Shown here piece by piece: positions 4,631-42,548 of a stretch of 64,000 nt of DNA (positions within the stretch are counted from its first letter, which is position 1; each line of letters starts with the position of its first letter). A program made the position numbers and the translations under genes. The DNA is from an uncultured delta proteobacterium (GTDB taxonomy: Bacteria > Desulfobacterota > Binatia > Binatales > Binataceae). The notes below the pieces were generated by a model. The model saw only the letters and a list, made by a program, of their open reading frames with translations, did no database searches and was not told the origin of the DNA. The stretch lies in contig CAVRUK010000005.1 in assembly GCA_963724395.1 (NCBI GenBank), positions 211,737 to 275,736 of the forward strand, written 5' to 3'.

Positions 4631-4767
4631 TTTACCTTCTCTCCTTGTTCACGCATCCGGGGAGATGTGGGAGCGCCCCAGAATCTTTTTTCAGTATTCG
4701 GTCCAAGGGGATCGTTTAACGTAATCATCGCGCGTGCCCCATGCACGCGACCCTCAAATTCAACTCG

Positions 4768-5379: not shown

Positions 5380-5426
5380 CTAATATACCGATCCAGCTCC
5401 GACGAACGAAAAACCCATCATCATAC

Positions 5427-6141
5427 TTATGCTGCCGCCGCGAGCGCCTTGGGCGCCGCCACCGCCGTATCGACGCGGACTCCCGGGCCCATGGTCGAGG
5501 ACAGCGCGACGCTGCGAACGTAATTGCCCTTGGCGCTGGCCGGCTTGGAGCGAACGATCGCACCGAGCAGCGCGCGCACGTTGTCGAGCAGCTTCTGACT
5601 CGCCGAAACTCAGCTTGCCGACGCGCGCGTGCACGACGCCCGCCTTGTCGACGCGGTAATCGACCTTACCGGCCTTGATTTCGGCGACGGCTTTGGCGAC
5701 GTCGAAGGTAACGGTGCCGACTTTCGGATTGGGCATCAGGCCGCGCGGTCCGAGAATTTTGCCGATACGTCCGACCTGGCCCATCATGTCGGGCGTGGCA
5801 ATGACGCGGTCGAAGTCGAGCCAGTTCTCTTCCTGTATTTTCTTAATGATGTCGTCGCCGCCGACGAAGTCTGCGCCCGCTTCGCGCGCCTCGCGCTCTT
5901 TCTCGCCCTTGGCGACTACCAGCACGCGCGCGGTCGAACCGGTGCCGTGCGGCAGCACGATCGTGCCGCGGACGTTCTGATCGGCCTGGCGCGGATCGAC
6001 GCCGAGCCGCACGGCAATCTCGACCGTCTCGTCGAACTTGGCGACCTTGTTGTCGACCACCAGCTTGACGGCTTCTTCGAGCGAGTAGCGCTTTTCGCGA
6101 TCGATTTTTTTGAGCGCTTCCTTATATTTCTTGCCTGCCAT
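5427..6141 (-). CDS. rplA: 50S ribosomal protein L1, with a single-base frame break near 5598
   Basis: [14 protein letters not shown]...[10 protein letters not shown]...[15 protein letters not shown] is typical L1. After ...[10 protein letters not shown] the ORF-track frame becomes Arg/Gln-rich nonsense. Another frame continues [43 protein letters not shown]...KALAAAA to TAA at 5427-5429. The total length of 715 nt equals 3n+1. Confidence 0.9.
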
Positions 6142-6166
6142 TCTTTTTAGATCCTTTTTTTGACCA

Positions 6167-6592
6167 TCAGTCGGTGACTTCGATTCCCATGCTGCGGGCG
6201 GTCCCCGACACCGTGTTTACGGCGGCGGCGAGGTCGGCCGCAGTCAGGTCCTTGAGCTTGGTCTTGGCGATTTCCTCGACCTGCGCGCGCGTGACCTTGC
6301 CGACCTTGTTCTTGTTGGGCATCGGCGAGCCTTTTTCGATTCCCGCCGCGCGCAGCAGCAGGATCGATGCGGGCGGACTCTTGGTGACGAAGGTGAACGA
6401 GCGGTCGGCATAGACGGTGACGATCACCGGGATGACGAGGCCCTGCATGTTCTGGGTCTGCGCGTTGAAGGCCTTGCAGAACTCCATGATATTGACGCCG
6501 CGCTGGCCGAGCGCGGGTCCCACCGGCGGCGACGGATTGGCCGCGCCGGCTGGAATCTGCAGCTTGATCGATCCGACTACTTTCTTAGCCAC
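6167..6592 (-). CDS. rplK: 50S ribosomal protein L11
   Basis: 141-aa ORF: [44 protein letters not shown], the canonical L11 N-terminus. Confidence 0.97.
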
Positions 6593-6677
6593 TTTAAATC
6601 CGTTCCTGGTTGCTCAAGTCGCGAACGCCGCCCGCGCGCATCGGATGCATGCTTGACGGCGAATCGATTGTTTCGTT

Positions 6678-7259
6678 TCAGGCCTTCTCTACCTGCACAA
6701 AGTCCAGCTCGACCGGAGTTGCGCGGCCGAAGATCGAAATGAGAACACGCACCTTGCCCTTCTCCGGCTTGACTTCCTCGACGGTGCCGTTGAAGTCCTG
6801 GAACGGGCCGTCGACGACTTTGATCGCCTCGCCGACTTCGAACAGCACTTTGGGCTTGGGCCGCAGCGCGCCCTCTTCCATCTGCTGCTCGATTTCCGCA
6901 ACTTCGGAAATCGGCACTTCGGGCGGATTGGTCGAATGCCCGACGAAGCCGGTGATTTTCGGCGTGTCCTTGATCACGTGCCAGGTCTCGTCGTCGAGCA
7001 CCATCTGCACGAAAATGTAGCCGGGGAAAAATTTGCGGCTCGAAACCTTGCGCGCGCCGCCCTTGCCGAGTTCCTGCACGCGCTCGATCGGCACCAGCAC
7101 CTTGCCGATTTTCTCTTCCTTGTGCAGCGAGCGCACCCGCTCCTCGAGCGCGGCCTTGGCCTTGTGCTCGTAGCCCGAGTAGGTATGGACGATATACCAC
7201 TTCATCGCGGGCTTGGCGGTTTCGGTGGTCGGTTCAGTCATTTGGCTATCGGCGGTCAT
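6678..7259 (-). CDS. nusG: Transcription termination/antitermination factor NusG
   Basis: 193-aa ORF with an NGN domain (KWYIVHTYSGYEHKAK) and a KOW motif (GEAIKVVDGPFQDFNGTVEEV), in secE-nusG-rplK synteny. Confidence 0.96.
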   Translation of the reverse strand: MTADSQMTEPTTETAKPAMKWYIVHTYSGYEHKAKAALEERVRSLHKEEKIGKVLVPIERVQELGKGGARKVSSRKFFPGYIFVQMVLDDETWHVIKDTPKITGFVGHSTNPPEVPISEVAEIEQQMEEGALRPKPKVLFEVGEAIKVVDGPFQDFNGTVEEVKPEKGKVRVLISIFGRATPVELDFVQVEKA

Positions 7260-7277
7260 GGATCCGTTCGTTAATGT

Positions 7278-7481
7278 CTAGCGGAGCAGCATCTGCACGC
7301 CGCGCACCGCGAAAAAATCGATCACTCCGAGCCACAAAGCCATCACAAACGCCAGACCGACAACCACAATCGTGGCCTGCATGGTTTCCTTGGGCGAGGG
7401 GTAATGGACCTTGGCAAGCTCCGTCCATGCTTCCGAGACGAAACTTACGCCCTGATTGAAGTAACTTTTCAGACTATTCAT
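7278..7481 (-). CDS. secE: Preprotein translocase subunit SecE
   Basis: 67-aa ORF with a single C-terminal TM helix (TIVVVGLAFVMALWLGVIDFF), located between tRNA-Trp and nusG. Confidence 0.85.
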   Translation of the reverse strand: MNSLKSYFNQGVSFVSEAWTELAKVHYPSPKETMQATIVVVGLAFVMALWLGVIDFFAVRGVQMLLR

Positions 7482-7527
7482 TTTTCGTGCCTAAATCAAG
7501 AACCACGTGATTAATCCGTCTAATGTT

Positions 7528-7604
7528 TGGCGGGCCAGCCAGGGGTCGAACCTGGAACCCTCGGATTTGGAGTCCGATGCTCTGCCAATTGGAGCTACTG
7601 ACCC
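7528..7604 (-). tRNA. tRNA-Trp (anticodon CCA)
   Basis: Reverse complement reads GGGTCAGTAGCTCCAATTGGCAGAGCATCGGACTCCAAATCCGAGGGTTCCAGGTTCGACCCCTGGCTGGCCCGCCA. The acceptor stem pairs, the anticodon stem-loop is TCGGA-CTCCAAA-TCCGA, the T loop is GGTTCGA, and CCA is encoded. Confidence 0.93.
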
Positions 7605-7653
7605 GTTCTTTTCAGTACTGCAGAGCATCCAGCATGTGCCGGCACTCTACTGA

Positions 7654-7809
7654 TTAAGTAATTTTGCCTTCTTTGTGCACGGTATGCGAGCGGCATCGCG
7701 GACAGAATTTCTTGATCGAAAATTTGTCGGTCTGCGTCTTCTTGTTCTTGGTGGTCGTGTAGTTGCGCGACTTGCAGGTGTCGCACGAAAGCGAAATCAG
7801 ATCTCTCAT
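7654..7809 (-). CDS. rpmG: 50S ribosomal protein L33
   Basis: [51 protein letters not shown] (51 aa) carries the CxxC...CxxC zinc ribbon of L33. It is the terminal part of ORF-track entry 7654-8265, whose upstream part merely reads through tRNA genes. Confidence 0.93.
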
Positions 7810-7877
7810 TATATATCGCCTCGAAAAAAGTACTTCGCCTCGAAAAATCTCGCCATCCGGTCCGCTCAAATTTGGAA

Positions 7878-7950
<73 letters not shown>

Positions 7951-8023
7951 ATCGGCAAACTGCTCAACCGGACCAATCGACATCCACCAAAAAACTCGCC
8001 GCCTCTTCCCGTCACGGATCGTC

Positions 8024-8099
8024 TGGAGCGGGAAACGGGACTCGAACCCGCGACCCCGAGCTTGGAAGGCTCGCGCTCTACCAACTGAGCTATTCCCGC
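8024..8099 (-). tRNA. tRNA-Gly (anticodon UCC)
   Basis: Reverse complement reads GCGGGAATAGCTCAGTTGGTAGAGCGCGAGCCTTCCAAGCTCGGGGTCGCGGGTTCGAGTCCCGTTTCCCGCTCCA. The anticodon loop is CTTCCAA and CCA is encoded. Confidence 0.92.
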
Positions 8100-8125
8100 T
8101 CTCTCCGTCGAACTCATTATTATAC

Positions 8126-8211
<86 letters not shown>

Positions 8212-8234
8212 TCCCAAGGCTATCGTGCCGACCA

Positions 8235-8306
8235 AGCCGATGGCGAGAATCGAACTCGCAACCACCTGATTACAAATCAGGTGCTCTACCGTTGAGCTAC
8301 ATCGGC
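8235..8306 (-). tRNA. tRNA-Thr (anticodon UGU)
   Basis: Reverse complement reads GCCGATGTAGCTCAACGGTAGAGCACCTGATTTGTAATCAGGTGGTTGCGAGTTCGATTCTCGCCATCGGCT. The anticodon stem-loop is CCTGA-TTTGTAA-TCAGG. Confidence 0.9.
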
Positions 8307-8325
8307 AAACGACGTTAAGAAAGAA

Positions 8326-8354
8326 AAGCTATTCGCCGCGGTAGCGACTGTCAA
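8326..8354 (-). promoter_or_regulatory. Candidate sigma70-type promoter of the tRNA-rpmG-secE-nusG transcription unit
   Basis: On the minus strand: TTGACA (8354-8349), a 17-nt spacer, then TAGCTT (8331-8326). The site lies about 20 nt upstream of the 5' end of tRNA-Thr(UGU). Confidence 0.35.
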
Positions 8355-8541
8355 GCTAAACGGGGTCTGGGGGGTCTGCTTCTTGCATTCCGCGGGCCTG
8401 ATTCGCCACGCAATGCGCGCCCTCGCGGCAGAGCGAGAGCAGTGCCAGCGCAGCCTGTAGATTCTACAATCGCGTTTGGAAAACTGCGCATCGAGGTAAC
8501 GCAGGTAACAAACCAAATCTTGCGGGCGTGGGGGGGAATCC

Positions 8542-8931
8542 GTGAAAGTGATCCTCATGCCAAAAGCCAAACCATCCAGTAGCACTCTGATGGACCTCGA
8601 ATGGGCCAGAGTTTACGCGGACCGTATCAAAGATGAGCTAAAGCTGATCGCCAAGACACTGTCGGACCTCAACGCCCATGCGATGCATCCGCATCTCGTC
8701 AAGGGCGCGGTGCTGCTGAAAGCGCAGATGAAGGAAGCCAGTCAGCAGGTCGGCGGGATGAGAAAAATCGCGAGCCAGTACGAATCCAACTGGATGAGCA
8801 CGATCAAGAAGGCGCTCGAGCGGAAGTATCCTGGCTTCAACGAGGGCAAACCGGCGCGCGCCAAGCCGGCGGCCAAAAAATCCGCGAAGAAGAAATCGCG
8901 GCCAGCACGACGGCCCTCGCCACTAGCCTGA
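8542..8931 (+). CDS. Hypothetical protein with a Lys/Ala/Arg-rich C-terminal tail
   Basis: 129-aa ORF with coding-like composition and predicted helices (DRIKDELKLIAKTLSDL, LLKAQMKEASQQVGG). The tail is KPARAKPAAKKSAKKKSRPARR. No family was recognised. It converges on rlmB. Confidence 0.5.
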   Translation: MKVILMPKAKPSSSTLMDLEWARVYADRIKDELKLIAKTLSDLNAHAMHPHLVKGAVLLKAQMKEASQQVGGMRKIASQYESNWMSTIKKALERKYPGFNEGKPARAKPAAKKSAKKKSRPARRPSPLA

Positions 8932-9834
8932 ATTCTTCGCAGTAGCGCGGCGGCGGGCGATTTCGAACAGCGCGACGGCGGCGGCGACCGACACGTTGAG
9001 CGAGCCGACTTTGCCGCGCATCGGGATGTCCACGACGAAGTCCGCGCCCTTCTTCACGATGTCGCGAACGCCGCGCCCCTCGGAACCGACGATGATCGCG
9101 AGCTTGCGCGAGGTGTCGAGCGCGTAGATCGACGTGTCGCCGCCGGGTGCGAGCGCCGCCGTCCAGTAGCCCGCCTCCTTGAGCTGCTCGATAGTGCGCG
9201 CGACGTTGCCGCATCGCGCGATCTTCAGATGTATCCACGCACCGGCCGACGACTTGACCGCCGCGGGCGTAATGGCCGCGGTGCGGTCCTTCGCGATAAC
9301 GATCGCGCCGACGCCGGCGCCTTCCGCCGAGCGCATCAGGGCGCCCAGGTTGCGCGGATCGGTGACGCCGTCCACCAGCACGATGGGGTCGGGCTGCGCG
9401 GCGAGAATCTGCTCGAGCGGCGTGTACTCGTACTCGCGCATCAGGGCCGCAATCCCCTGGTGGCGCGCGGTGGGGCCCGCCAGCCGCTCCAGGCCGGCGT
9501 CATCGGCGAACTCGACGCGGCCGCCGCCGGTTCTGACGAGATCGATCTCGGCGGCGAAGCGCCGCTCGTCGCCGGATTTCACGTAGAGTACTCGAATCGA
9601 GGCGGGCGCCGCCGCGACCAGCTCGCGGATCGGCTCGACGCCGTAAACTATTTCGCGATCGTTGCCGCTCGCGCGCCGAGTCTCGCGCTCACCCGCATCC
9701 GCACGCCGATAGTCGCGCGCAGGGGGCGGCGCGGCCGCCGGTTTGGCAGGTGACGCGGGCGAATTGCGGCGCGGCGGACGCGGTGCGTTGCGGTTGAAGC
9801 GCGGATTGCGGTCCTTGTCGCGAAAGTCTCTCAT
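8923..9834 (-). CDS. rlmB: TrmH/SpoU-family rRNA 2'-O-methyltransferase (RlmB-like)
   Basis: Contains a substrate-binding N-domain (IVYGVEPIRELVAAAP..IRVLYV) and SpoU motifs (VDGVTDPRNLGALMRSAEGAGV, IIVGSEGRGVR, GKVGSLNVSVAAAVALFE). The start is taken at MRDFRDK (9834). The ORF stays open to 9981. Confidence 0.8.
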   Translation of the reverse strand: MRDFRDKDRNPRFNRNAPRPPRRNSPASPAKPAAAPPPARDYRRADAGERETRRASGNDREIVYGVEPIRELVAAAPASIRVLYVKSGDERRFAAEIDLVRTGGGRVEFADDAGLERLAGPTARHQGIAALMREYEYTPLEQILAAQPDPIVLVDGVTDPRNLGALMRSAEGAGVGAIVIAKDRTAAITPAAVKSSAGAWIHLKIARCGNVARTIEQLKEAGYWTAALAPGGDTSIYALDTSRKLAIIVGSEGRGVRDIVKKGADFVVDIPMRGKVGSLNVSVAAAVALFEIARRRATAKNSG

Positions 9835-33957: not shown

Positions 33958-34404
33958 ATGCGTCTGACCAGGCTAAGAATTCTCGGCGCTGTCATACTCG
34001 CGGCCGGCGCAGCGTTTCTCATCTTCACCGCGACCACAGATTGCACGCCGGTAACCGGCAGCGACGACGTCGCCATCAACGTGTCCGCGCTGCGTCCCGG
34101 CAGCGCGCGGCTTTTCTGTTACACCGACAACGCAGGCGAACGTCTGCGGTTCGTCCTCGCACGCGGCAACGACGGCAGGGTGAGCTCGGTGTTCGACGCG
34201 TGCCGCCAATGCTTCGCGTTCCATCGCGGCTACCGGATAGCTGGCGGCGAACTGATTTGCCGGGTGTGCGGGAATCACTACCCGATCGATCGGATGACGG
34301 AAGGTAAAGCGTCGTGCGTGCCCGTCAGCCTGCGGCATGAAGACGATTCCGGAATCGTGCACATCAAGACCGCGGATCTCAAGGCCGGGGGCGCGCTCTT
34401 CTGA
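33958..34404 (+). CDS. Membrane-anchored CxxC/CxxC zinc-ribbon protein, DUF2318-like
   Basis: N-terminal TM (LRILGAVILAAGAAFLIF) followed by FDACRQCFAFHRGYRIAGGELICRVCGNHYPIDRM. This resembles the DUF2318 proteins found with metal-uptake and thioredoxin genes. Confidence 0.5.
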   Translation: MRLTRLRILGAVILAAGAAFLIFTATTDCTPVTGSDDVAINVSALRPGSARLFCYTDNAGERLRFVLARGNDGRVSSVFDACRQCFAFHRGYRIAGGELICRVCGNHYPIDRMTEGKASCVPVSLRHEDDSGIVHIKTADLKAGGALF

Positions 34405-35052: not shown

Positions 35053-35373
35053 ATGGCAACCTCGCTGACGATCGACCGTACTTCGATGCGGCAAATTGCC
35101 GCGGCGATGGCGTTCGTCATGATGATGGCGAGTCTGCCGTCGATCGGCGTGATCGTCATTTCGGATCGTTCCGGGCCGAGTATCTCGATGGACATCTGCC
35201 ATCCGCTGCAATCGCTCGACAGCGCGCCCAGCGCCGTGCCAATCGCACGCCCTGCGCAGCCCGGCATCGGCGCGAGGATTCTTTCGCACGAGAGACTCGC
35301 TCAATTCGTTCCCATTCTGAAGAGTAAATTAGCCGACGCTCCCGACCCGCCACCGCCCAAGCTGTTCTGCTAG
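35053..35373 (+). CDS. Hypothetical membrane/secreted protein ending in a C-terminal Cys
   Basis: 106 aa, starting 12 nt after the SCO stop. It has a hydrophobic segment (IAAAMAFVMMMASLPSIGVIVI), MDICHP, and a Pro-rich end (ADAPDPPPPKLFC). No family was recognised. Confidence 0.4.
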   Translation: MATSLTIDRTSMRQIAAAMAFVMMMASLPSIGVIVISDRSGPSISMDICHPLQSLDSAPSAVPIARPAQPGIGARILSHERLAQFVPILKSKLADAPDPPPPKLFC

Positions 35374-35473
35374 CAGGGCACTTTCAAATTTTCATCAAGA
35401 GATGATTGCGCGCGAGCCTCGACGGTTCGCGAGCACATGGGTGCGGCCTTAGTTGGCCGGGGATGGGTGTTCT

Positions 35474-36469
35474 ATGCGGAGCAATCATATGTCGTGGCGC
35501 CTGGCTTTCTCTAAGTCGGCCAGACGCGTGTTGGTGGCGACAATTTTCGCGATCGGTCTAACGCCCGGTCTGGTTTGGGCGTGTGCATGCGGATGCGGAG
35601 TTTTCGAGGTGGATACCGAAGCTCTAATTCCCCAGGGAACGGGAGGCCAAGTGTGGTTTCAATATGAATACATGGATCAGTACATAAACTTTAAAGCAAC
35701 TCAGCCAGCCTCTGAATTCCAGAATAACGACAAGTACATCCGAACCAATTTCATGGAAGTCGGCGGACAGTACATGTTCAATCGGAGTTGGGGAGTGATG
35801 CTCGAGGTGCCCTATTGGTCGCGCTACTACAAGGGTGCCTATGTCGGCAACAACGCCGACATTCATTCGTTCCAGGACGACTCGATCGGCGATATCCGAA
35901 TCCAGGGGATGTATACGGGTCTCTCGGAGGACATGTCGACCGGACTGATGGCGGGAGTCAAGGTCCCGAGCGGCCAGTGGACCTATCCACCCTACGATCG
36001 GGACACGCAGATCGGCACTGGAAGCACCGATCTTCTCCTGGGCGCTTACCACATCGGATCATTACCGACGAAGTTGGGGACCTTGCCGTTGACCTTCAAG
36101 GAGCGCCCCTTCAATTACTTCGTGCAGGTCAACTACGATCTGCCGCTGTGGGAACAGGACCAGTACACGCCTGGTAGGGAAGTCGACGGCGCAGTAGGAG
36201 CCTACTACGATTTCGGCAAAGTTGGTTTTCTCAAGGAACTCGCACCGATGCTGACCTTCCTCGCCTCTGACCGTACGCGGGATACTGGAAATAACGCAAA
36301 CCCCGGCGCCAGCGGCTACACGCGTTTGCTCCTGGCTCCGGGAGGCGAAATCAAAATCGGGGTCATCAGGGCCTACGCAGACATTGAGGTCCCGGTTTTT
36401 CAAAACGTGAGGGGCTATCAGCTGACTGCGGCCTACGCGACCAAGCTGATCCTGAGCTACAGCTTCTGA
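35474..36469 (+). CDS. Outer-membrane beta-barrel protein (PF13557 / MetA-pathway transporter-like) with an N-terminal CACGCG motif
   Basis: Signal peptide ending GLVWA, then CACGCGVFEV. It shows an alternating beta-strand pattern, VKVPSG...IGTGSTDLLLGAY, and the terminal LILSYSF (C-terminal Phe, an OMP signature). The region is AT-richer than its surroundings. Confidence 0.6.
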   Translation: MRSNHMSWRLAFSKSARRVLVATIFAIGLTPGLVWACACGCGVFEVDTEALIPQGTGGQVWFQYEYMDQYINFKATQPASEFQNNDKYIRTNFMEVGGQYMFNRSWGVMLEVPYWSRYYKGAYVGNNADIHSFQDDSIGDIRIQGMYTGLSEDMSTGLMAGVKVPSGQWTYPPYDRDTQIGTGSTDLLLGAYHIGSLPTKLGTLPLTFKERPFNYFVQVNYDLPLWEQDQYTPGREVDGAVGAYYDFGKVGFLKELAPMLTFLASDRTRDTGNNANPGASGYTRLLLAPGGEIKIGVIRAYADIEVPVFQNVRGYQLTAAYATKLILSYSF

Positions 36470-36546: not shown

Positions 36547-37137
36547 ATGAGTATTCATCGTAATCTCAGATCTCTCGGAATAGCGTTAGTCGTAGTGTCA
36601 AGCTTGTTCGCGGCTGCTGGATGCCACAGCGACTCAACCGCGGAGGGCGCTAGTGTCCTCACGGACACCAAGCTCGTCGATCAGAATGGCAATACGCTCA
36701 CGCTCGAGTCGCTCAAGGGCAAGCCGATGGTGGTGGATTTCATCTATACGACGTGCCCGGGTCCCTGCCTGATGGAGACGGCAAAGTTTGCGAACGTCGC
36801 GCTACGGCTGGGCAACGATCTCGGTTCGAAGGTGATTCTCGTTTCGATCACTGTCGATCCCGAGCATGACGGCCCTAAACAGTTGCTCGACTACTCGCAT
36901 CAGCAGGGCGCGGATGAGAAGGGCTGGTATTTCCTGACTGGAGGGCCCGCGGACGTCGATAAGGCGCTGGCGGGTTTCAAGCTCAGCCGGCAAATCGAGC
37001 CCGACGGTTCGGTTGGCCACATGATTGCTATGATGCTGATCGGCCCGGATGGGCGGATAGTTAGAGAATACAACGGCGAAGCCGTGAGGGCCCAGGACAT
37101 CGTCCAGGATGTCAAGAAAACGCTCAACGAGGGCTGA
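36547..37137 (+). CDS. SCO1/SenC-family protein (paralog 2, lipoprotein)
   Basis: Lipobox FAAAGC, the CxxxC motif in FIYTTCPGPCLM, DPEHDGP, and GSVGHMIAMMLIGPDG. Confidence 0.88.
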   Translation: MSIHRNLRSLGIALVVVSSLFAAAGCHSDSTAEGASVLTDTKLVDQNGNTLTLESLKGKPMVVDFIYTTCPGPCLMETAKFANVALRLGNDLGSKVILVSITVDPEHDGPKQLLDYSHQQGADEKGWYFLTGGPADVDKALAGFKLSRQIEPDGSVGHMIAMMLIGPDGRIVREYNGEAVRAQDIVQDVKKTLNEG

Positions 37138-37147
37138 GAGACGCAGC

Positions 37148-37730
37148 ATGAAGCGAGGGAACCCGAGCGTGAGGCGAACGACATTGTGGGCTGCTGGCGC
37201 GGGAGTTGCCGCGATCATTTGCATGGCTGCGCTGGCGTTCGCCTCCGCGACTGTCGGTAACGCTGCGCCGGCGCTGGAGGTGCCCGAACTGGACGGTCAG
37301 ACATTCAATCTAAGTGCACAACGTGGGAAAGTCGTGATCGTCAACTTCTGGGCGACCTGGTGTCCGCCTTGCCGCGAGGAAATGCCGGCGCTGGACGCTT
37401 TCTACCGGCGCTATCATGGTCAAGGTCTTCGAGCTGATCGGCGTGAGCGCCGACCGCCCGCACGACCGCTCCGATGTGGTCAAAGTCATGCAGTCGTTCA
37501 GCTATCCCGCGGCCATGCTCGATGACGCCAACGTCAACGATTTCGGCCCACCCAACAGCTTGCCAATGACTGTTGTCGTGGACAGTAATGGGGTGGTGCG
37601 TGCGGAGTTTACGCCCGATCAGGCCAAGGTCACGGAGAAGAGCCTATCGGACGCCGTGCTGCCACTGCTGCCGCAGAGTTCTGCGGCGCATGCATCAGCG
37701 AATCCAGGTAGCGCTGACGCCAAGCCTTGA
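37148..37730 (+). CDS. tlpA: TlpA/ResA-like periplasmic thiol-disulfide oxidoreductase, with a single-base frame break near 37430
   Basis: Signal anchor, then GKVVIVNFWATWCPPCREEMPALDAFYRRYHGQGL in one frame. It continues ELIGVSADRPHDRSDVVKVMQSFSYPAAMLDD...LPMTVVVDSNGVVRAEF in the next frame (ORF 37416-37730). Confidence 0.82.
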
Positions 37731-37763
37731 CCCCAGGAGCAGTCCTCGTTGCAACCGCGTCAA

Positions 37764-38153
37764 GTGAAGAAGCTCGCGCTAGTCGCAGTTATCCTGATGG
37801 CTGGATGCGCTGCTTCGAACAGCTGGGACGTCGATTCGGATCCGAAGCTCGCGCAGTTGGAAAAACAGAGACTGTCCCTCGACGCGAGCGAGAAGCGCTG
37901 CATCGATGAAGCGCAGGTCCGTAGCCGTGATAAGATGGCAGGCATGGCATCAGGTCCCGACGCTCCCGTGGAATCGCAGCCGCAGGGGGCAGATGACGAG
38001 CGCGATCGGGAAATTTCGCAATGCCGGGCCTGGGCGGATCAGGAAAACGCGAATATCGCCGAACAGGAGCGCAACGAATATGAGCTTCAAGCACAGCAAG
38101 AGCGCAGTCGCGCCTTGTTCATGGCGGTTATTACGAGTCCCCCGTTGCACTGA
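37764..38153 (+). CDS. Hypothetical coiled-coil lipoprotein
   Basis: VKKLALVAVILMAGC lipobox followed by charged helical sequence with two Cys (EKRCIDEA, EISQCRAW). No family was recognised. Confidence 0.5.
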   Translation: MKKLALVAVILMAGCAASNSWDVDSDPKLAQLEKQRLSLDASEKRCIDEAQVRSRDKMAGMASGPDAPVESQPQGADDERDREISQCRAWADQENANIAEQERNEYELQAQQERSRALFMAVITSPPLH

Positions 38154-38174: not shown

Positions 38175-38771
38175 ATGCAGTCTTCAGCAGAGTCATCGGT
38201 AGTCACCCAGGATCCGGCGTACGTGCCTCAAGCGAGGCGTCTCGCATCGCGGATTCTGCGCGATCTCGGAGTCGTTGTCCTGCTCGCAATCGCATCGCTC
38301 ATGGCTGGACTCACGATCAACCATTTTTCACTCGCTCCGCAGCCCATCCTCTATCAAACGCCGGAGCAGCGGTTCGATGCCGAGTTGACGACTCTGGTCG
38401 CCGCGCCGCCGTTCAAGATCGCGCCCGCGGCAACCATCGGACTCGATAAATTCCGCACAGCCGTCGACAGCAAGCGTGTACTCATCCTTGATGCGCGCCC
38501 GTCGGTGTTCTTCGAAAATGGGCACGTCCCCGGCGCAAGCAACCTCGCGCGGGACAACTTCGCGCAGGATTATCGGCGCCTGACCGGCGTGCTCGAAGCC
38601 AACCGTGACAAGCCGATCATCGTGTATTGCTCCGGCGGCGAATGCCACGACAGCAAGCTCGTCGCGAACGCACTGCTGAGTCTCGGCTTCGGCAATGTCA
38701 GCGTCTTCACTGGTGGATGGGAAGCATGGTCGGCAGCTGGATTGCCGGCATCGAAGGGGCGCGAACCATGA
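38175..38771 (+). CDS. Membrane-anchored rhodanese-domain protein
   Basis: TM segment (LGVVVLLAIASLMAGLTI) followed by VLILDARPSVFFENGHVPGASNL...PIIVYCSGGECHDSKLVANALLSLGFGNVSVFTGGWEAW. Confidence 0.78.
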   Translation: MQSSAESSVVTQDPAYVPQARRLASRILRDLGVVVLLAIASLMAGLTINHFSLAPQPILYQTPEQRFDAELTTLVAAPPFKIAPAATIGLDKFRTAVDSKRVLILDARPSVFFENGHVPGASNLARDNFAQDYRRLTGVLEANRDKPIIVYCSGGECHDSKLVANALLSLGFGNVSVFTGGWEAWSAAGLPASKGREP

Positions 38772-39211
38772 TGCCCCGCAACAATTCGCGTCGCTATGTG
38801 GTGCTCGCAGCCAGCGTAGCCATGGCCGCCATATTCACTTACGCAGGCATCGACAAGATCCGCGACCCGCTGTCGTTCGCCGATAGCGTCGCCGGATTCG
38901 CGATCCTGCCAGCCGTGCTGATCAACCTGCTCGCGATAGGTCTGCCGCCATTTGAGATCGCGAGCGGCCTCATGTTGCTCGGGCCGTGGACCAGGCGGGT
39001 CGGAGCGCTCGCGGTCGCTGTACTCTCGATAATATTTTTCACGGCATTGGCGTCGGCGCTGCTTCGAGGTCTCACGCTCGACTGCGGCTGCTTCGGGACC
39101 GGCGCCCCGTCACGACCAAGAATGTGGCTGGAGCTTGGACTGGACGCGGTGTTGTTCTCAGCTGCGGTCTTCGTCTATCTACGCTCGACTACCCAGATGT
39201 CGCCGGAATAA
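38768..39211 (+). CDS. MauE/DoxX-family membrane protein
   Basis: Four TM helices and the family motif LTLDCGCFG. There is an ATGA overlap with the rhodanese gene. Confidence 0.72.
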   Translation: MMPRNNSRRYVVLAASVAMAAIFTYAGIDKIRDPLSFADSVAGFAILPAVLINLLAIGLPPFEIASGLMLLGPWTRRVGALAVAVLSIIFFTALASALLRGLTLDCGCFGTGAPSRPRMWLELGLDAVLFSAAVFVYLRSTTQMSPE

Positions 39212-39266: not shown

Positions 39267-40175
39267 ATGCGGAAGAAAATAATTTTCGCGCTGATGGTGC
39301 TGTTCGCGATGCGCGCGAGCGCGGTGCATGCACACGGCGTTGTTGGCGATTACATATTCCTGGAGCCGCTGGTGACCGACGACGCGACCCCGGCCAACGA
39401 AATGGATATCGTGGAGCCGAACTGGAACCGGAACTCCGGCGGCCGGACTTTCTCGATCGGTTCGTCAATCGAAAAGCTGCTTGGCACCGATAGCGATAAC
39501 TTGCCGCGATTCAGCATCGGCGGCGGCTCGACGTGGATCTCTCAATCGCCAAAGCAGGGACCTGATGTCAGCGGGTTCGACGTCTTGGGACTGTTCGCCA
39601 AGTATGCGTTTCTAATCGTTCCGGAACATGAATTTATATTGTCGGCCAAGGCGGTGCTGGATTTACCCACGGGCAATCCGTCCGTTACGTCCCAGCAGCA
39701 TACGAGCCTTGGCCCGGAATTGATCGGAGCGAAGGCGCTTGGCGACCTGCCCAACACAACGCTGCTGAAGTGGCTGCGGCCGGTCGGATTCCAGTTTGAC
39801 TACGGCTACCTTCCCGCGTTGGGAGGCCATACCAGTCATCACATGTTTGCCGACGGTATGATCGAGTACTCGCTCCCCTACCTGAGCAACAACGTGCAGG
39901 ACATCGGACTGAAGTGGCCGCTGCGCAATATGTTTCTGTTCAACGAATTCAACTATGACCAGTTGATCTCCGGGCCGCCGCATCAGACCTTCCCCACAAT
40001 CCTGGCGACGCCCGGAATCGCATACATCAGCTATCGTTTCGAAGTCAGCGTCGGTACCCAGTTCGCTCTCAACCAGGCGAGCGTGCCCGGCAATCATGCT
40101 GCAATTCTCGGGCTATTGGACATTTTCTACGACTCGATAATTCCGCAGGGCAATTGGAAACTGTTCGGAGAATGA
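39267..40175 (+). CDS. Outer-membrane beta-barrel protein (PF13557 / MetA-pathway transporter-like), second copy
   Basis: Signal peptide MRKKIIFALMVLFAMRASAVHA, with VLDLPTGNPS...LGPELIGAKALG and alternating strand patterns. The region is AT-richer. It overlaps copC by 4 nt. Confidence 0.55.
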   Translation: MRKKIIFALMVLFAMRASAVHAHGVVGDYIFLEPLVTDDATPANEMDIVEPNWNRNSGGRTFSIGSSIEKLLGTDSDNLPRFSIGGGSTWISQSPKQGPDVSGFDVLGLFAKYAFLIVPEHEFILSAKAVLDLPTGNPSVTSQQHTSLGPELIGAKALGDLPNTTLLKWLRPVGFQFDYGYLPALGGHTSHHMFADGMIEYSLPYLSNNVQDIGLKWPLRNMFLFNEFNYDQLISGPPHQTFPTILATPGIAYISYRFEVSVGTQFALNQASVPGNHAAILGLLDIFYDSIIPQGNWKLFGE

Positions 40176-40561
40176 CAACCATGATCGTTCGAAAAGTCTC
40201 GCTGTTGGCCCTCGGGCTACTGGCTATTGAAGTGAGTACGCCGGCGATTACGGCAGCGCATTCGTTCCCGGAACAGGAAACTCCATCGGCGGGACAGAAA
40301 GTCGCTTCGCCTCCTCCCGAAGTTGTGATCAAGTTTGACGCACCGATAGAGAAGCTGTTCGCCAAGCTGGAAGTGACAGGCGCCGACGGTACGAATCAGG
40401 CAGTCGGCGCGCCCCAGGTCAGCGACGACGGGATTCAGCTGTCGGTCAAGCTCGGCACGCTCAAACCCGGCGATTACACGGTCAAGTGGGCGGTCGTGTG
40501 TATCGATACGCATCACACGGAAGGTTCGTATACCTTCTCGGTCGCGAACGGCGGATCGTGA
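40172..40561 (+). CDS. copC: Periplasmic copper-binding protein CopC
   Basis: The signal peptide ends ...PAITAA, so the mature protein starts HSFPEQETPSAGQKVASPPPEVVIKFDAPIE (N-terminal His typical of CopC). It also contains GDYTVKWAVVCIDTHHTEGSYTFSV. Confidence 0.85.
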   Translation: MTTMIVRKVSLLALGLLAIEVSTPAITAAHSFPEQETPSAGQKVASPPPEVVIKFDAPIEKLFAKLEVTGADGTNQAVGAPQVSDDGIQLSVKLGTLKPGDYTVKWAVVCIDTHHTEGSYTFSVANGGS

Positions 40562-41424
40562 TTCCGCAGCCAATATTCGCGTGGCCGTTGGTAGGGTCGC
40601 AAGTGCTGATATTCGGAACGACAGCTTTTGCGCTGATGGCGGCGCCGCGCGACGTCGCCGCGGCCGATCGTTCGAGTCAAAGCCTGGCGAAGCTATGGAG
40701 GATGCTCGCGCTGATCGTTCTGGTGGTGTCGCCGCTGAGACTTTTGTCGGTCGCGGCCGGAATGGCGGACTCGACCTTCAGAGAAGTGCTTCCGATGATG
40801 CCGCAGATAATGCGCGAGACCTTTGCTGGCCGGGTATGGACGTGGCGGCTCGCGACCGCGCTGTTGTTGGCCGGGGTCGCGTGGATTCCCGCGCCCGGAC
40901 GCCTCGCGACGACGCTGATGCTCGTCATCTCGGCGGCTCTGCTCGCATTGCAAAGCGTCACGAGTCATGCGGTGGACAAGGGCGCGTTCGCGATCGCCGT
41001 TCACTTTACGCATCAGGCAGCCGCCGGCTTGTGGATCGGGGCGTTAGTCTCACTGCTGATAGGCGCGACCTACGGACATGCCGGCGCGAACTGGCTGCGG
41101 TCGGCGACCTCGCGAGTATCAAGGATTGCGGGATGGTCCGTCGCGGCGCTGATAGTGACCGGCGTGATCAGAGCATGGGACGCGCTGGGACTGCGACTCG
41201 ATCTGCTGGTGAACTCGATCTACGGGCGGACATTACTGTGGAAAGTCGGCACTGCCGCCACGGTGATTTTAATTGGCGGCTACAACCGCTATCGGCTGGT
41301 AGGGTCGGTCGGAGAGTCGTCAGCGCGCGCGGCTCTTATTCGCAATGTGGCCGTGGAATGCGCTCTGCTGGCTGTCGTGCTTGGATGGTCGGTAGTGCTG
41401 GCCAATACGCCGCCGCCGCATTGA
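40558..41424 (+). CDS. copD: Copper resistance/import membrane protein CopD
   Basis: Eight hydrophobic segments, with SVTSHAV...AVHFTHQAAAGLWIGAL and GGYNRYRL. The GTG start overlaps the copC stop. Confidence 0.8.
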   Translation: MIPQPIFAWPLVGSQVLIFGTTAFALMAAPRDVAAADRSSQSLAKLWRMLALIVLVVSPLRLLSVAAGMADSTFREVLPMMPQIMRETFAGRVWTWRLATALLLAGVAWIPAPGRLATTLMLVISAALLALQSVTSHAVDKGAFAIAVHFTHQAAAGLWIGALVSLLIGATYGHAGANWLRSATSRVSRIAGWSVAALIVTGVIRAWDALGLRLDLLVNSIYGRTLLWKVGTAATVILIGGYNRYRLVGSVGESSARAALIRNVAVECALLAVVLGWSVVLANTPPPH

Positions 41425-41475: not shown

Positions 41476-42081
41476 ATGACTATTCATCGCAACCTCAGAT
41501 CTTTCGCGATTGTGCTAGTCGCAATGTCGAGTTTGTTTGCGGCTGCTGGATGCCATCGCGACTCCGACGGCGCCGCGGCCTCCGCGAGTGTTCTCACTGA
41601 CACCAAGCTGGTCGATCAGAATGGCAACACCGTCGCGCTCACCTCGCTCAAGGGCAAACCGCTGGTGGTCGACTTCATCTATACGTCGTGTCCGGGGCCG
41701 TGTCTGATGGAGACGGCGAAGTTGGCGAACGTCGCGCTGCGACTGGGCAACGACCTCGGTTCGAAAGTGACGATCGTTTCGATCAGCGTCGATCCCGAGC
41801 ATGACGGCCCCAAGCAGTTGCTCGACTACTCGCGTCAGCAGGGAGCGGACGAGAAGGGATGGTATTTTCTGACCGGCGGTCCTGGAGATATCGATCGGGC
41901 GCTGGCGGGCTTCAAGCTCAGCCGGCAAATCGAGCCGGATGGTTCAGTCGGGCACCTCGTGAATATGATGTTGATCGGACCGGACGGGCGCTTGGTGCGC
42001 GAATACAACGGCGAAATTGTCAAAGCGCAGGACATCGTCGATGACGTCAAGAAGACTTTGAACAAGGGCGGTGCGGCATGA
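41476..42081 (+). CDS. SCO1/SenC-family protein (paralog 3, close duplicate of paralog 2)
   Basis: LFAAAGCH lipobox, FIYTSCPGPCLM, DPEHDGPKQLLDYSRQQGADEKGWYFLTGGP and GSVGHLVNMMLIGPDG. It is near-collinear with 36547-37137. Confidence 0.88.
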   Translation: MTIHRNLRSFAIVLVAMSSLFAAAGCHRDSDGAAASASVLTDTKLVDQNGNTVALTSLKGKPLVVDFIYTSCPGPCLMETAKLANVALRLGNDLGSKVTIVSISVDPEHDGPKQLLDYSRQQGADEKGWYFLTGGPGDIDRALAGFKLSRQIEPDGSVGHLVNMMLIGPDGRLVREYNGEIVKAQDIVDDVKKTLNKGGAA

Positions 42082-42548
42082 AACGGGCAATAATTTTCGG
42101 CTCGTCGCTTGCGACAATCCTGGCGCTGGCATATCTGTGGCCACTGATCGGCGGTTCCGCATTCGAAAATGGCAGTGCGCGCGGAGCGATGTGCATCGCG
42201 GGCCATTGCTGCTGCTCGGGACGCGCGGAGGCCGAGACCGTCGCGGCAAACAACGAAAGGACGCAGGGGCGCTTGACGCTCGACCCAAATCAGTTCGTCG
42301 GCCCAGTTAAGGAAGCCTACAAATACGCGGAGAAAAATCCCGCGCTGCTGGCGCAACTGCATTGCTATTGCGGATGCGACAGGGCCGAAGGTCATCAGAA
42401 CCTCCTCGACTGTTATCGCGGTATGCACGCGTCGTCGTGCGAAATCTGCACCGGCGAGGTGCTGATGGCGAAGCGAATGGCAGAGCAAGGCTCGCCGGTC
42501 GATCAGATCCGCGACGCGATCCGCAGGAATTTCGCGCAGGACAATTGA
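42078..42548 (+). CDS. PCYCGC-motif (PF13798-like) Cys-rich protein
   Basis: N-terminal TM, MCIAGHCCCSG, then LAQLHCYCGCDRAEGHQNLLDCYRGMHASSCEICTGEVLMA. There is a 4-nt overlap with the preceding SCO gene. Confidence 0.7.
   Translation: MKRAIIFGSSLATILALAYLWPLIGGSAFENGSARGAMCIAGHCCCSGRAEAETVAANNERTQGRLTLDPNQFVGPVKEAYKYAEKNPALLAQLHCYCGCDRAEGHQNLLDCYRGMHASSCEICTGEVLMAKRMAEQGSPVDQIRDAIRRNFAQDN

What the first reader, a model, noticed from the sequence alone, without database searches (positions are those of the whole stretch)
35474..36469. Porin-like outer-membrane barrel whose mature N-terminus is a CACGCG cysteine cluster
After the predicted signal peptide (…TPGLVWA), the protein begins CACGCGVFEV. 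That is three Cys in five residues, an arrangement suited to Cu(I)/thiolate binding, or to lipidation at the first Cys. The rest shows the alternating-strand pattern, the VKVPSG...IGTGSTDL motif and the terminal Phe of PF13557-type (MetA-pathway) barrels, which have no known role in metal transport. A second barrel of the same general type (39267-40175), lacking the Cys cluster but having an HAHG N-terminus, immediately precedes copCD with a 4-nt overlap. Together they are candidates for a new class of outer-membrane copper entry channels.
Basis: inference. Interest (0 to 1): 0.55.

Follow-up and report, generated by a model that had tools for sequence, protein, structure and literature searches.

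The report
Cysteine-tipped outer-membrane barrel linked to copper
This gene encodes a small outer-membrane barrel whose first mature residues are three cysteines (CACGCG); it belongs to a large unnamed family that sits next to copper-handling genes in several phyla, which makes it a testable candidate for how copper crosses the outer membrane.

Summary
ORF 35474-36469 encodes a 331-aa protein with a signal peptide ending VWA, followed directly by CACGCG, and it ends in Phe. The motif is the hallmark of a large unnamed family: 946 clusters at 50% identity, more than 541 loci in species-representative genomes, in Binatia, Alpha- and Gammaproteobacteria, Verrucomicrobiota, Omnitrophota and Oligoflexia. 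The residues before Cys1 fit signal peptidase I in 188/195 sequences and a lipobox in 2/195. In 133/141 members there is no other Cys.

The model is a 12-stranded barrel closest to the COG4313 channel Pput2725 (Z 23) and to FapF. The window protein misses Pfam PF13557; only fringe members touch it.

Copper linkage holds across phyla:
- a TlpA/ResA-like redoxin lies directly downstream (46/49 Binatia loci, 16/29 others);
- SCO1, PCuAC, CopCD and cupredoxin are neighbours;
- a leader ORF with a Pro-rich tail lies upstream in 76/90 loci; some proteobacterial ones match DUF2946 or carry its RAPP/RGPP tail (CruR/CutF type).

Best reading (about 0.5): a copper-acquisition barrel whose N-terminal thiolates bind Cu(I) and are kept reduced by the redoxin. 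No experiment exists. Transport direction, and ion versus chelate as substrate, remain open. The second barrel (invariant N-terminal His) always precedes copCD. This scan had already noted the same barrel in other genomes.

The parts
35053..35373 (+). Leader ORF (106 aa): N-terminal hydrophobic helix, a single conserved Cys (DICHP) and a C-terminal Pro-rich tail (APDPPPPKLFC). It is a candidate CutF/CruR-like copper-sensing arrest peptide.
   Evidence: A homologous ORF lies upstream of the barrel in 39/49 Binatia loci. A Pro-rich tail occurs in 76/90 loci against 5.4% of random windows. The window ORF does not match DUF2946; a few upstream ORFs in proteobacterial loci do, mostly below the Pfam cut-off.
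35406..35434 (+). Stem-loop in the 100-nt spacer between the leader ORF and the barrel gene.
   Evidence: The fold of 35340-35490 gives an 8-bp hairpin. The whole stretch has z = -2.39. This is weak and was not tested for conservation.
35474..35581 (+). Signal peptide of the barrel protein (residues 1-36, ending VWA).
   Evidence: The AXA-type site is conserved in 188/195 family members. AF2 models residues 6-28 as a helix.
35582..35599 (+). CACGCG cluster, the first six residues of the predicted mature protein.
   Evidence: Invariant in A1, A3 and A5. These are the only Cys residues of the mature protein.
35474..36469 (+). Outer-membrane 12-stranded barrel of COG4313/FapF type (331 aa).
   Evidence: AF2 pLDDT 73.8. 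VIA-align Z 23.0 to 4rl8_C and 22.1 to FapF. A profile hit to FapF at E 1e-4.
36547..37137 (+). SCO1/SenC copper chaperone. In this genome it is inserted between the barrel and its usual redoxin neighbour.
   Evidence: PF02630, E 1.5e-24. SCO lies within the locus in 41/49 Binatia loci.
37109..37730 (+). TlpA/ResA-like membrane-anchored thioredoxin (WCPPC). Here it is split by a frame change near 37416-37430.
   Evidence: Two overlapping ORFs. It is a single ORF in the other loci. It lies next to the barrel in 46/49 Binatia loci and 16/29 other loci. The NCBIfam ResA/TlpA hits lie below the family cut-offs.
39267..40175 (+). Second putative barrel, with an invariant predicted N-terminal His (AxA|HGVVGD).
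   Evidence: Alignment A4. Low-confidence model. In the atlas, the nearest named cluster carries PF13557 in 39% of its members. copCD follow it in 52/52 loci.
40172..41424 (+). copC (40172-40561; PF04234) and copD (ORF 40486-41424).
Evidence: CopC matches Pfam at E 2.9e-20.
33958..34404 (+). FtrD-like/DUF2318 Cys-rich membrane protein, a frequent upstream neighbour.
   Evidence: PF10080, E 5e-18. Present in 23/49 Binatia loci.
38175..39211 (+). Rhodanese (38175-38771) and MauE/DoxX-like membrane protein (38771-39211).
   Evidence: Pfam. The pair is present in about 30/49 Binatia loci and was not seen next to the barrel outside Binatia.
42078..42548 (+). CYCXC/PCYCGC family protein (CYCGC motif), which follows an SCO gene.
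   Evidence: NF041379, 111 bits, above its cut-off. Present in 25/49 Binatia loci.

Best explanation
The gene encodes the founding type of an undescribed family of small outer-membrane barrels. They are 12-stranded and COG4313/FapF-like, and they appear to work in copper acquisition for the cell envelope.

Proposed mechanism:
1. Signal peptidase I cuts after AxA, so the mature protein starts with Cys-Ala-Cys-Gly-Cys-Gly. These are its only cysteines.
2. By analogy with the solved COG4313 channel, the roughly 20 residues before strand 1 fold into the barrel lumen from the periplasmic side. That would place a three-thiolate Cu(I) site in or at the mouth of the pore (inferred).
3. Copper reaching the site is bound as Cu(I). 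Cu(II) would oxidise the thiols.
4. The TlpA/ResA-like periplasmic redoxin encoded next to the barrel re-reduces the cluster, as TlpA does for ScoI and CoxB (inferred).
5. Copper is then handed to periplasmic carriers encoded nearby (SCO1, PCuAC, CopC/CopD) for CuA and other cuproenzymes (inferred).
6. Expression is probably set by an upstream leader peptide of the CruR/CutF kind: exported, Cys-bearing, with a Pro-rich arrest tail (inferred for Binatia).

Shown here: the motif, its conservation, the cleavage-site type, the fold class and the cross-phylum gene neighbourhood.

Inferred: copper binding, the position of the cluster in the lumen, the redoxin-substrate relation, and import as the direction of transport.
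For: - Motif: invariant and family-defining. There are no other Cys residues in 133/141 members, so the cysteines are not structural disulfides with the barrel.
- Cleavage: the site is AXA-type, not a lipobox.
- Fold: Z 23.0, rmsd 2.7 A, 248/268 residues aligned to Pput2725, with model residues 45-331 matching chain residues 1-268. In that structure the N-terminal ~14 residues occupy the lumen (PMC4493636).
- Redoxin neighbour: directly downstream, often overlapping the barrel gene, in 46/49 Binatia loci and 16/29 loci of other phyla. The same holds in Ralstonia megaplasmids.
- Copper genes next to the barrel:
  - SCO in 41/49 Binatia loci;
  - a neighbour cluster present in 7 non-Binatia loci, whose 3 scanned members are all PCuAC;
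  - cupredoxin, cytochrome c and SCO.
- Leader ORFs:
  - DUF2946: one upstream ORF above the Pfam cut-off and two just below it, further ORFs with RAPP/RGPP tails, and an ORF annotated DUF2946 in Ralstonia.
  - Published work shows such ORFs are copper-sensing leaders. They head copper operons that otherwise contain TonB-dependent copper receptors, PCuAC, Sco and 'AhpC_TSA' genes (PMC9426467; PMC9973294).
  - A Pro-tailed leader lies upstream in 76/90 loci, against 5.4% of control windows.
- Own genome (93% complete): four CuA (COX2) domains, but no OprC-type receptor, CopB/PcoB or PCuAC was found.
- Complex prediction (barrel plus redoxin from locus L104): weak support only.
  - ipSAE 0.42, best control 0.00.
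  - The runs agree in at least 85% of contacts; partner pLDDT is at least 87.
  - The pass mark was reached by 58/80 solved complexes and 2/110 mismatched pairs.
  - At a score of 0.60 or below, only 7 of the 80 solved complexes passed, as did both mismatches.
  - Such a pass is more often wrong than right unless the pairing was already likely.
Against: - No experimental datum exists for any member, and no paper was found.
- The Cys segment is modelled with pLDDT below 50, so its place in the lumen rests on analogy only.
- Characterised COG4313 relatives carry hydrophobic molecules, and FapF exports a polypeptide. None is known to carry a metal.
- The Binatia leader ORF has one Cys and does not match DUF2946. 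CutF-type leaders can switch genes on with copper, so the direction (uptake or defence) is open.
- In Verrucomicrobiota the neighbours include a CDF efflux pump and no redoxin.
- Most of the counts come from related genomes and are not independent.
- In this window the redoxin gene carries a frame break.
Confidence: 0.5

Rival explanations
1. Copper defence rather than uptake. The barrel and its thiolate tip sequester periplasmic Cu(I) or let it out, as proposed for PcoB/CopB-type outer-membrane proteins. The redoxin and SCO-like proteins would protect envelope thiols.
For: - CutF-type leader peptides switch on the copper-detoxifying oxidase CutO when copper rises (PMC9973294).
- A CDF efflux pump lies next to the barrel in Verrucomicrobiota loci.
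- Several SCO paralogues and a CYCXC protein sit in the island.
Against: - The most frequent partners (TlpA-like redoxin, SCO1, PCuAC, CopCD) belong to cuproenzyme assembly and uptake.
- No CopA-type oxidase, Cus or P-type ATPase genes were seen next to the barrel in the loci examined.
- The RAPP-tailed DUF2946 leader that has been characterised (CruR) represses an uptake operon when copper is present (PMC9426467).
Confidence: 0.17
2. A channel for a small, partly hydrophobic copper chelate or thiol compound, not for the bare ion. This is in keeping with what COG4313 channels are thought to carry. The Cys tip would act as a ligand-exchange or redox (CGC-type) site.
For: - The closest fold is a COG4313 channel with bound detergent and a proposed hydrophobic substrate (PMC4493636).
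- In Ralstonia the barrel-redoxin pair is followed by a second DUF2946 ORF and a MoeZ - JAMM peptidase - MoaD/ThiS sulfur-carrier set. From my own knowledge, such a set is the kind used to make thiocarboxylate metallophores.
- A rhodanese-MauE pair lies in the Binatia islands.
Against: - No metallophore biosynthesis genes were seen next to the barrel in Binatia or in most other loci.
- The rhodanese-MauE pair was not seen outside Binatia.
- The Ralstonia protein belongs to the sister branch with CxxCxC.
Confidence: 0.13
3. A thiol-gated channel or redox relay unrelated to copper as cargo. The N-terminal plug is locked or released by oxidation of the CxCxC cysteines, and the redoxin opens it. 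The cargo could be another thiophilic metal or a sulfur species.
For: - The barrel has an obligate redoxin neighbour.
- The Ralstonia locus lies beside genes annotated 'arsenate reductase (azurin)' large and small subunits. I read these as arsenite-oxidase-like genes; that is my own reading, not tested here.
Against: - Three cysteines with no partner elsewhere give no stable lock to the barrel wall.
- The neighbourhood is specifically copper-related (SCO1, PCuAC, CopC, cupredoxin, DUF2946) in independent phyla.
Confidence: 0.1
4. A lipoprotein whose Cys1 is acylated, so that the cluster is merely a lipid anchor region.
For: Cys directly follows an Ala or Gly at the end of a signal peptide.
Against: - Only 2/195 sequences fit a lipobox.
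- Position -3 is S/A/V/G rather than Leu, and position -2 is W/R/H in most.
- Integral barrels do not need a lipid anchor.
- Cys3 and Cys5 are equally invariant, which an anchor would not explain.
Confidence: 0.03

Closest known systems
COG4313 / PF13557 (Phenol_MetA_deg) outer-membrane channels, e.g. Pput2725 of Pseudomonas putida F1 (PDB 4rl8)
   Same: - Size and signal peptide.
- 12-stranded barrel: Z 23.0, rmsd 2.7 A over 248/268 residues.
- A short segment before strand 1, which in Pput2725 fills the lumen (PMC4493636).
- A KLPTG-like motif and a terminal aromatic residue.
- A few family members reach PF13557.
   Different: - The window protein has no PF13557 match.
- Sequence identity to the solved channel is 7%.
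- Known members are linked to hydrophobic substrates.
- In the literature I read, none is described with an N-terminal Cys cluster, a dedicated redoxin or copper neighbours.
FapF amyloid secretion channel of Pseudomonas (PDB 5o65)
   Same: The barrel fold (Z 22.1) and a weak profile match at E 1e-4.
   Different: - FapF has a long N-terminal coiled coil, forms trimers and lies in the fap operon.
- None of that is present here: the mature N-terminal segment is about 20 residues long, and no fap genes are nearby.
CruR(DUF2946)-led copper uptake operons with a TonB-dependent receptor (Bordetella bp2923-bfrG-bp2921; OprC-type receptors)
   Same: In proteobacterial loci a DUF2946 ORF with a RAPP/RGPP tail precedes the barrel, PCuAC and/or an AhpC/TSA-type redoxin. 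These are the same partner set reported for CruR operons (PMC9426467).
   Different: - The outer-membrane component is a 300-residue barrel with no TonB box or plug domain, not a 22-stranded receptor.
- The Binatia leader ORF is not a DUF2946 match.
TlpA - ScoI - PcuC - CoxB CuA assembly pathway of Bradyrhizobium diazoefficiens
   Same: A TlpA-like redoxin, SCO1 and (in other phyla) PCuAC are encoded next to the barrel. In that pathway TlpA keeps copper-binding cysteines reduced (PMC6669012; the TlpA substrate role is from my own knowledge).
   Different: That pathway has no known outer-membrane component. Here the redoxin gene is coupled to the barrel gene rather than to sco or coxB.
PcoB/CopB outer-membrane copper proteins (PF05275; PDB 7pge)
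   Same: A small outer-membrane barrel linked to copper.
   Different: - No PF05275 match.
- Structural similarity is no better than to unrelated 12-strand barrels (Z 12.7).
- PcoB uses a Met/His-rich N-terminal region, not Cys (from my own knowledge).

Membership tests
PF13557 / COG4313 outer-membrane channels | Match to the Pfam model above its gathering score. | tested here: not met
   The window protein has no hit even at E<=10, apart from OMP_b-brl at E 0.25. Six of 39 family members touch PF13557 at E<=0.1. A distant member, P0388, reaches 29.2 bits against a cut-off of 22.
PF13557 / COG4313 outer-membrane channels | Monomeric 12-stranded barrel like Pput2725. | tested here: met
   AF2 model with pLDDT 73.8. 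Z 23.0, rmsd 2.7 A, 248/268 residues aligned to 4rl8_C. The oligomeric state was not tested.
PF13557 / COG4313 outer-membrane channels | The N-terminal segment before strand 1 is inserted in the lumen. | tested here: inconclusive
   A 20-residue, highly conserved segment precedes strand 1. It is modelled with pLDDT below 50, and no coordinates were available.
FapF-type secretion channels | N-terminal coiled-coil domain and fap operon context. | tested here: not met
   The mature N-terminal segment is only about 20 residues. The neighbours are copper and thiol-redox genes.
Bacterial lipoproteins | Lipobox [LVI][ASTVI][GAS]C at the end of the signal peptide. | tested here: not met
   2/195 sequences are lipobox-like and 188/195 are AXA-like. 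The window sequence has VWA|C.
OprC/NosA TonB-dependent copper receptors (TIGR01778) | A receptor of about 650-700 residues with a plug domain and TonB box. | tested here: not met
   The protein is 331 aa and a 12-strand barrel. The genome has no TIGR01778 match.
PcoB/CopB (PF05275) | Pfam CopB match. | tested here: not met
   No Pfam hit. Z to 7pge is only 12.7.
Fused cytochrome-porins (Cyc2 type) | CXXCH haem-binding motif near the mature N-terminus. | tested here: not met
   The sequence is CACGCGVF, with no His after the cysteines.
CruR/CutF (DUF2946) copper-sensing leader ORFs (for the upstream ORF 35053-35373) | Exported small protein with a CXXC/CxxxC motif and a C-terminal RAPP or Pro-rich arrest motif, heading the operon. 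| tested here: inconclusive
   The window ORF has a hydrophobic N-terminus, one Cys (DICHP) and the tail APDPPPPKLFC, but no DUF2946 match. In proteobacterial loci the upstream ORFs carry RAPP/RGPP tails; one matches DUF2946 above the Pfam cut-off, two just below it, and the Ralstonia one is annotated DUF2946.
TlpA/ResA/CcmG reductive periplasmic thioredoxins (for the downstream partner) | Membrane-anchored thioredoxin fold with a WCxxC motif. | tested here: met
   WCPPC in the window. AhpC-TSA, Redoxin and Thioredoxin_8 Pfam hits. ResA and TlpA NCBIfam hits lie below the equivalog cut-offs. The window copy is frame-broken.

The most novel reading that the evidence does not exclude
This is a previously unrecognised and widespread route by which diderm bacteria take up copper without a TonB-dependent receptor.
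- The route would use a passive 12-stranded barrel carrying a redox-maintained Cys3 Cu(I) site on its lumen-inserted N-terminus.
- The barrel would be serviced by its own TlpA-like reductase and switched by copper-sensing arrest peptides.
- A parallel barrel, whose first mature residue is an invariant His, would feed CopCD.
- Together the two would define 'N-terminal ligand' barrels as a new class of outer-membrane metal gates.
Probability: 0.35. Interest if true: 0.85.

Novelty: new variant of a known kind. Interest (0 to 1): 0.68.

Why it matters
How copper crosses the outer membrane is unsettled for most bacteria. To my knowledge only a few TonB-dependent receptors (OprC/NosA type), PcoB and general porins have been implicated.

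This family is large, spans at least six phyla and has no Pfam or NCBIfam model, so domain-based synteny surveys cannot see it. Yet it occupies the slot of the outer-membrane component in operons that carry copper chaperones and copper-sensing leader peptides.

If it binds and passes copper, it would add an outer-membrane step to the TlpA-Sco-PCuAC pathway of cytochrome oxidase assembly. It would also give TlpA-like redoxins a new class of substrate.

It can be tested directly, because a sister branch (CxxCxC) is present in cultured Ralstonia strains.

Tried and rejected
Neighbourhoods were obtained instead through the genome search, the fetch from genomes and the search for related loci.
- A phylum-wide genome sample gave almost nothing: 3/201 genomes, two of them weak. 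The sample held few Binataceae; the family-level search found the barrel in 88/151 genomes.
- The search for related loci with the broad alignment A2 failed for lack of a conserved stretch. The narrower alignment A3 worked.
- NCBIfam gave no family for the barrel or for its distant relatives.
- Literature searches found nothing on this family. The terms tried were PCYCGC, COG4313 plus copper, CXCXC plus outer membrane plus copper, MetA-pathway plus copper, and Binatota plus copper.
- Barrel 1 against barrel 2 by hhalign gave probability 4%. Only the KLPTG-like stretch aligned, so the two are not shown to be one family.
- The AF2 model of barrel 2 was poor (pLDDT 59.6). Its Foldseek hits (COG4313 and FapF among the top, TM about 0.35) cannot be relied on.
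- The promoter and terminator scan of the island found no more sites than in shuffled sequence.
- The lipoprotein reading was rejected on the lipobox test.
- A haem-binding (Cyc2-like) reading was rejected because there is no CXXCH.
- The PmoA search of the own genome was uninformative, because the control genomes gave no hit either.
- Sequencing runs and expression data were not sought. The source is a soil metagenome-assembled genome.
Full report
**1. What is in the sequence**

ORF 35474-36469 (+) encodes 331 residues. A TTG at 35453 could extend it by seven codons. Homologues, however, also begin with MR..., which favours the ATG at 35474.

The N-terminus has a basic stretch and a hydrophobic core and ends ...GLTPGLVWA. 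The next residues are CACGCGVFEV, with the six codons at 35582-35599. The mature protein has exactly three cysteines, all within its first five residues.

**2. The motif is a family hallmark, not chance**

- A word-indexed search found 3123 relatives. All are unnamed and without Pfam domains, and the best-named ones come from Candidatus Binataceae.
- In 29 relatives down to 58% identity, C37-A38-C39-G40-C41 are invariant.
- A profile search of 1.84 billion cluster representatives found 946 clusters at E<=0.001.
- Nearly all N-terminally complete representatives carry CACGC directly after the signal peptide. Rare variants are CGCGC, CSCGC and CNCGC. A distant branch carries CS[ST]CGC.
- Of 195 sequences with the motif, 165 read exactly CACGCG.
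- Of 141 full-length members, 133 have no other Cys.
- The 20 residues after the cleavage site are the best-conserved part of the protein.

**3. Cleavage site**

Position -1 is A/G/S in 189/195 sequences. Position -3 is S/A/V/G/T, and position -2 is mostly W, then L/R/H. This is the AXA rule of signal peptidase I (188/195). Only 2/195 fit a lipobox. Cys1 is therefore most likely the free N-terminal residue, and lipidation is unlikely.

**4. Fold and family**

- The window protein matches no Pfam or NCBIfam model.
- An AlphaFold2 model built from 29 sequences has pLDDT 73.8 and is an all-beta barrel. The Cys segment (residues 28-44) is below pLDDT 50.
- Foldseek ranks FapF and the COG4313 channel Pput2725 first (E about 1e-7).
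- VIA-align gives Z 23.0 (rmsd 2.7 A, 248/268 residues, model 45-331 against chain 1-268) to 4rl8_C, and Z 22.1 to FapF. Autotransporter barrels reach about 18-19. The copper protein PcoB reaches only 12.7.
- A family profile hits FapF in the PDB at E 1e-4.
- Six of 39 members touch PF13557 at E<=0.1, and one distant member exceeds its cut-off. The protein atlas places the protein next to clusters in which 13% of members carry PF13557.

The family is therefore a remote, unmodelled branch of the COG4313/FapF barrel superfamily. 'PF13557-type' holds for the fold but not for formal membership.

In Pput2725 the N-terminal ~14 residues fold into the lumen from the periplasmic side and nearly close the pore (PMC4493636). 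Model residues from 45 onward align with chain residue 1 onward. By analogy, the CACGCG tip would be an eight-residue extension of that inserted segment. This is an inference, and I could not inspect coordinates.

**5. Gene neighbourhood in Binataceae**

The barrel occurs in 88 of 151 sampled Binataceae genomes, usually as one copy. The window's own genome has one copy.

In 20 loci from different genera and 49 loci from species-representative genomes, the common order is FtrD-like/DUF2318 - small leader ORF - barrel - TlpA-like thioredoxin - small ORF - SCO1 - rhodanese - MauE, often followed by a CYCXC protein or by a second barrel with CopCD. Counts in the 49 loci:

| Neighbour | Loci (of 49) |
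|---|---|
| TlpA-like redoxin | 46 |
| SCO | 41 |
| Leader ORF | 39 |
| Rhodanese / MauE | 31 / 30 |
| CYCXC | 25 |
| FtrD-like | 23 |
| Barrel 2 + CopD | 11 |

These genomes are related, so the counts show conserved synteny rather than independent events.

**6. Gene neighbourhood in other phyla**

A pattern scan of one genome per species found more than 541 loci. They include Alpha- and Gammaproteobacteria, Verrucomicrobiota, Omnitrophota and Oligoflexia. In 29 such loci:

- A TlpA/ResA-like redoxin follows the barrel directly in 16, with gaps of a few bases or overlapping reading frames.
- A neighbour cluster present in 7 loci is PCuAC; all 3 members scanned matched.
- Other neighbours include a cupredoxin, a cytochrome c, SCO and, in Verrucomicrobiota, a CDF pump.
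- A sister branch exists whose mature N-terminus is CATCGC.
  - It is found on 129 Ralstonia megaplasmids.
  - There the gene order is DUF2946 - barrel - 'alkyl hydroperoxide reductase' (an AhpC/TSA-type redoxin overlapping by 11 nt) - a second DUF2946 - MoeZ - peptidase - MoaD/ThiS.

**7. The upstream leader ORF**

In proteobacterial loci, three of the ORFs just upstream of the barrel (or of PCuAC plus the barrel) match DUF2946. One is above the Pfam cut-off and two are just below it. These and several unscanned ones end in ...PR[AG]PP plus 3-4 residues.

Published work shows what such proteins do:
- The DUF2946 protein CruR of Bordetella pertussis is a copper-sensing upstream ORF.
  - Its CXXC and C-terminal RAPP arrest motif control a downstream TonB-dependent transporter.
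  - Its homologues head operons with TBDT, PCuAC, Sco, CopC, YcnI and AhpC_TSA genes (PMC9426467).
- CutF of Rhodobacter capsulatus, also DUF2946, uses a CxxxC motif and a Pro-rich C-terminus to couple periplasmic copper to translation of the next gene (PMC9973294).

Other lineages have comparable leaders:
- In Verrucomicrobiota and Oligoflexia the upstream ORF has CxxC and ends ...PP[TV]PPPR.
- In Binatia, including window ORF 35053-35373, it has a hydrophobic N-terminus, a conserved [ND]IC[QH]P and the tail (A)PD[TP]PPPK.

Such a Pro-tailed ORF ends within about 40-520 nt upstream of the Cys motif in 76/90 loci, against 5.4% of random windows in the same DNA. The window ORF does not match DUF2946, so for Binatia the likeness is functional inference only. 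A hairpin lies in the 100-nt spacer, which is weak evidence.

In these operons the barrel thus stands where a copper-receptor gene stands in described CruR operons. Because it has no Pfam domain, the published domain-based synteny survey could not have seen it.

**8. Genome context**

The genome is 93% complete. It has four CuA (COX2) domains. I found no PCuAC, no OprC-type receptor and no CopB/PcoB. Absence in an incomplete genome is not proof, but it fits a need for another outer-membrane copper route.

**9. Redoxin-barrel contact**

A complex prediction used the L104 pair (barrel residues 42-324, redoxin residues 25-172, each with an alignment). It gave weak support: ipSAE 0.42 against a best control of 0.00. 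The runs agreed in at least 85% of contacts, and partner pLDDT was at least 87.

The tool's calibration says the pass mark was reached by 58/80 solved complexes and 2/110 mismatched pairs. At scores of 0.60 or below, only 7 of the 80 solved complexes passed, as did both mismatches. Such a pass is therefore more often wrong than right unless the pairing was already likely. Conserved adjacency makes the pairing likely beforehand, so I count this as a slight plus and no more.

**10. Mechanism proposed**

*Shown:*
- a secreted barrel of the COG4313 type;
- a free N-terminal Cys-x-Cys-x-Cys that is its only thiol content;
- an adjacent reductive-type thioredoxin;
- copper chaperones and copper-sensing leaders as neighbours.

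*Inferred:*
- The tip binds Cu(I). CxC motifs are classical Cu(I) ligands, for example in CCS and metallothioneins (my own knowledge).
- It lies in or at the pore.
- Cu(II) arriving from outside would oxidise the thiols.
- The redoxin restores them, as TlpA does for ScoI and CoxB (PMC6669012 for the pathway; the substrate role from my own knowledge).
- Copper passes on to SCO1, PCuAC or CopC.

Import seems more likely than export, because the partners are assembly and uptake factors. The evidence does not settle this.

**11. The second barrel**

ORF 39267-40175 belongs to a separate Binataceae-centred family (398 hits). Its predicted first mature residue, His23, is invariant (AxA|HGVVGD[YF].FLEP). 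CopC or CopD follows it in 52/52 metagenome loci that have at least 700 nt of downstream DNA. An orf106-type leader often precedes it.

Its fold is not established:
- the model has pLDDT 59.6;
- the Foldseek TM-scores are low;
- hhalign against barrel 1 gives probability 4%;
- in the atlas, the nearest named cluster carries PF13557 in 39% of members.

The parallel is suggestive: two barrels, each with a metal-ligand residue as its first mature residue, and one tied to CopCD, whose CopC also starts with His. It remains unproven.

**12. Comparison and novelty**

The fold is known. The function, the N-terminal Cys cluster, the dedicated redoxin and the copper-leader context are not described for any COG4313/FapF relative in the literature I could search. 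I file this as a new variant of a known kind: an outer-membrane barrel adapted to metal handling.

This scan had already flagged the same CACGCG barrel in other genomes (e1-5243345, e1-1530196). One follow-up described a related Binataceae copper operon (e1-4851470). Those are AI notes and do not count as independent evidence.

**13. Verdict**

A copper-related function of the barrel is likely (about 0.8, summing the copper readings). The specific uptake mechanism is plausible (about 0.5). Nothing has been tested experimentally.

Noticed in passing
window 37109-37730: The TlpA-like thioredoxin gene is split into two overlapping frames near 37416-37430. It is one ORF in every other locus compared. 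This is either an assembly error or a recent pseudogene.
   Followed up: partly
window 39267-40175 and loci L133-L212: The second putative barrel has an invariant predicted N-terminal His (AxA|HGVVGD). It is followed by copC/copD in 52/52 loci with enough downstream DNA. A Pro-tailed leader ORF of the orf106 type often precedes it.
   Followed up: partly
L213 (Ralstonia solanacearum megaplasmid CP023017.1) 4347-9093: The gene order is DUF2946 - barrel homologue with mature CATCGC - AhpC/TSA redoxin - second DUF2946 - MoeZ - JAMM-type peptidase - MoaD/ThiS. This sulfur-carrier set might make a thio-metallophore under copper control. Genes annotated 'arsenate reductase (azurin)' subunits, which look arsenite-oxidase-like to me, lie next to it.
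   Followed up: no
window 42078-42548: A CYCXC/PCYCGC family protein (CYCGC motif, NF041379) follows an SCO gene. The SCO-CYCXC pair recurs in 25/49 Binatia loci. The own genome shows no PCuAC, so this protein might stand in as a Cu(I) chaperone.
   Followed up: no
window 33958-34404: An FtrD-like/DUF2318 membrane protein with CxxC...CxxC is a frequent first gene of the island (23/49 loci). Its role next to thioredoxin-like proteins is unexplained.
   Followed up: no
window 38175-39211: A rhodanese is translationally coupled to a MauE/DoxX-like membrane protein. The pair occurs in about 30/49 Binatia islands but not next to the barrel in other phyla.
   Followed up: no
window 37749-38153: A small conserved ORF (134 aa, lipoprotein-like N-terminus, no family) follows the redoxin in 26/49 Binatia loci.
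   Followed up: no
loci L117, L119, L130 (Verrucomicrobiota): In these loci the barrel lies next to a CDF cation-efflux gene and a squalene/phytoene synthase gene, and it lacks the redoxin neighbour.
   Followed up: no
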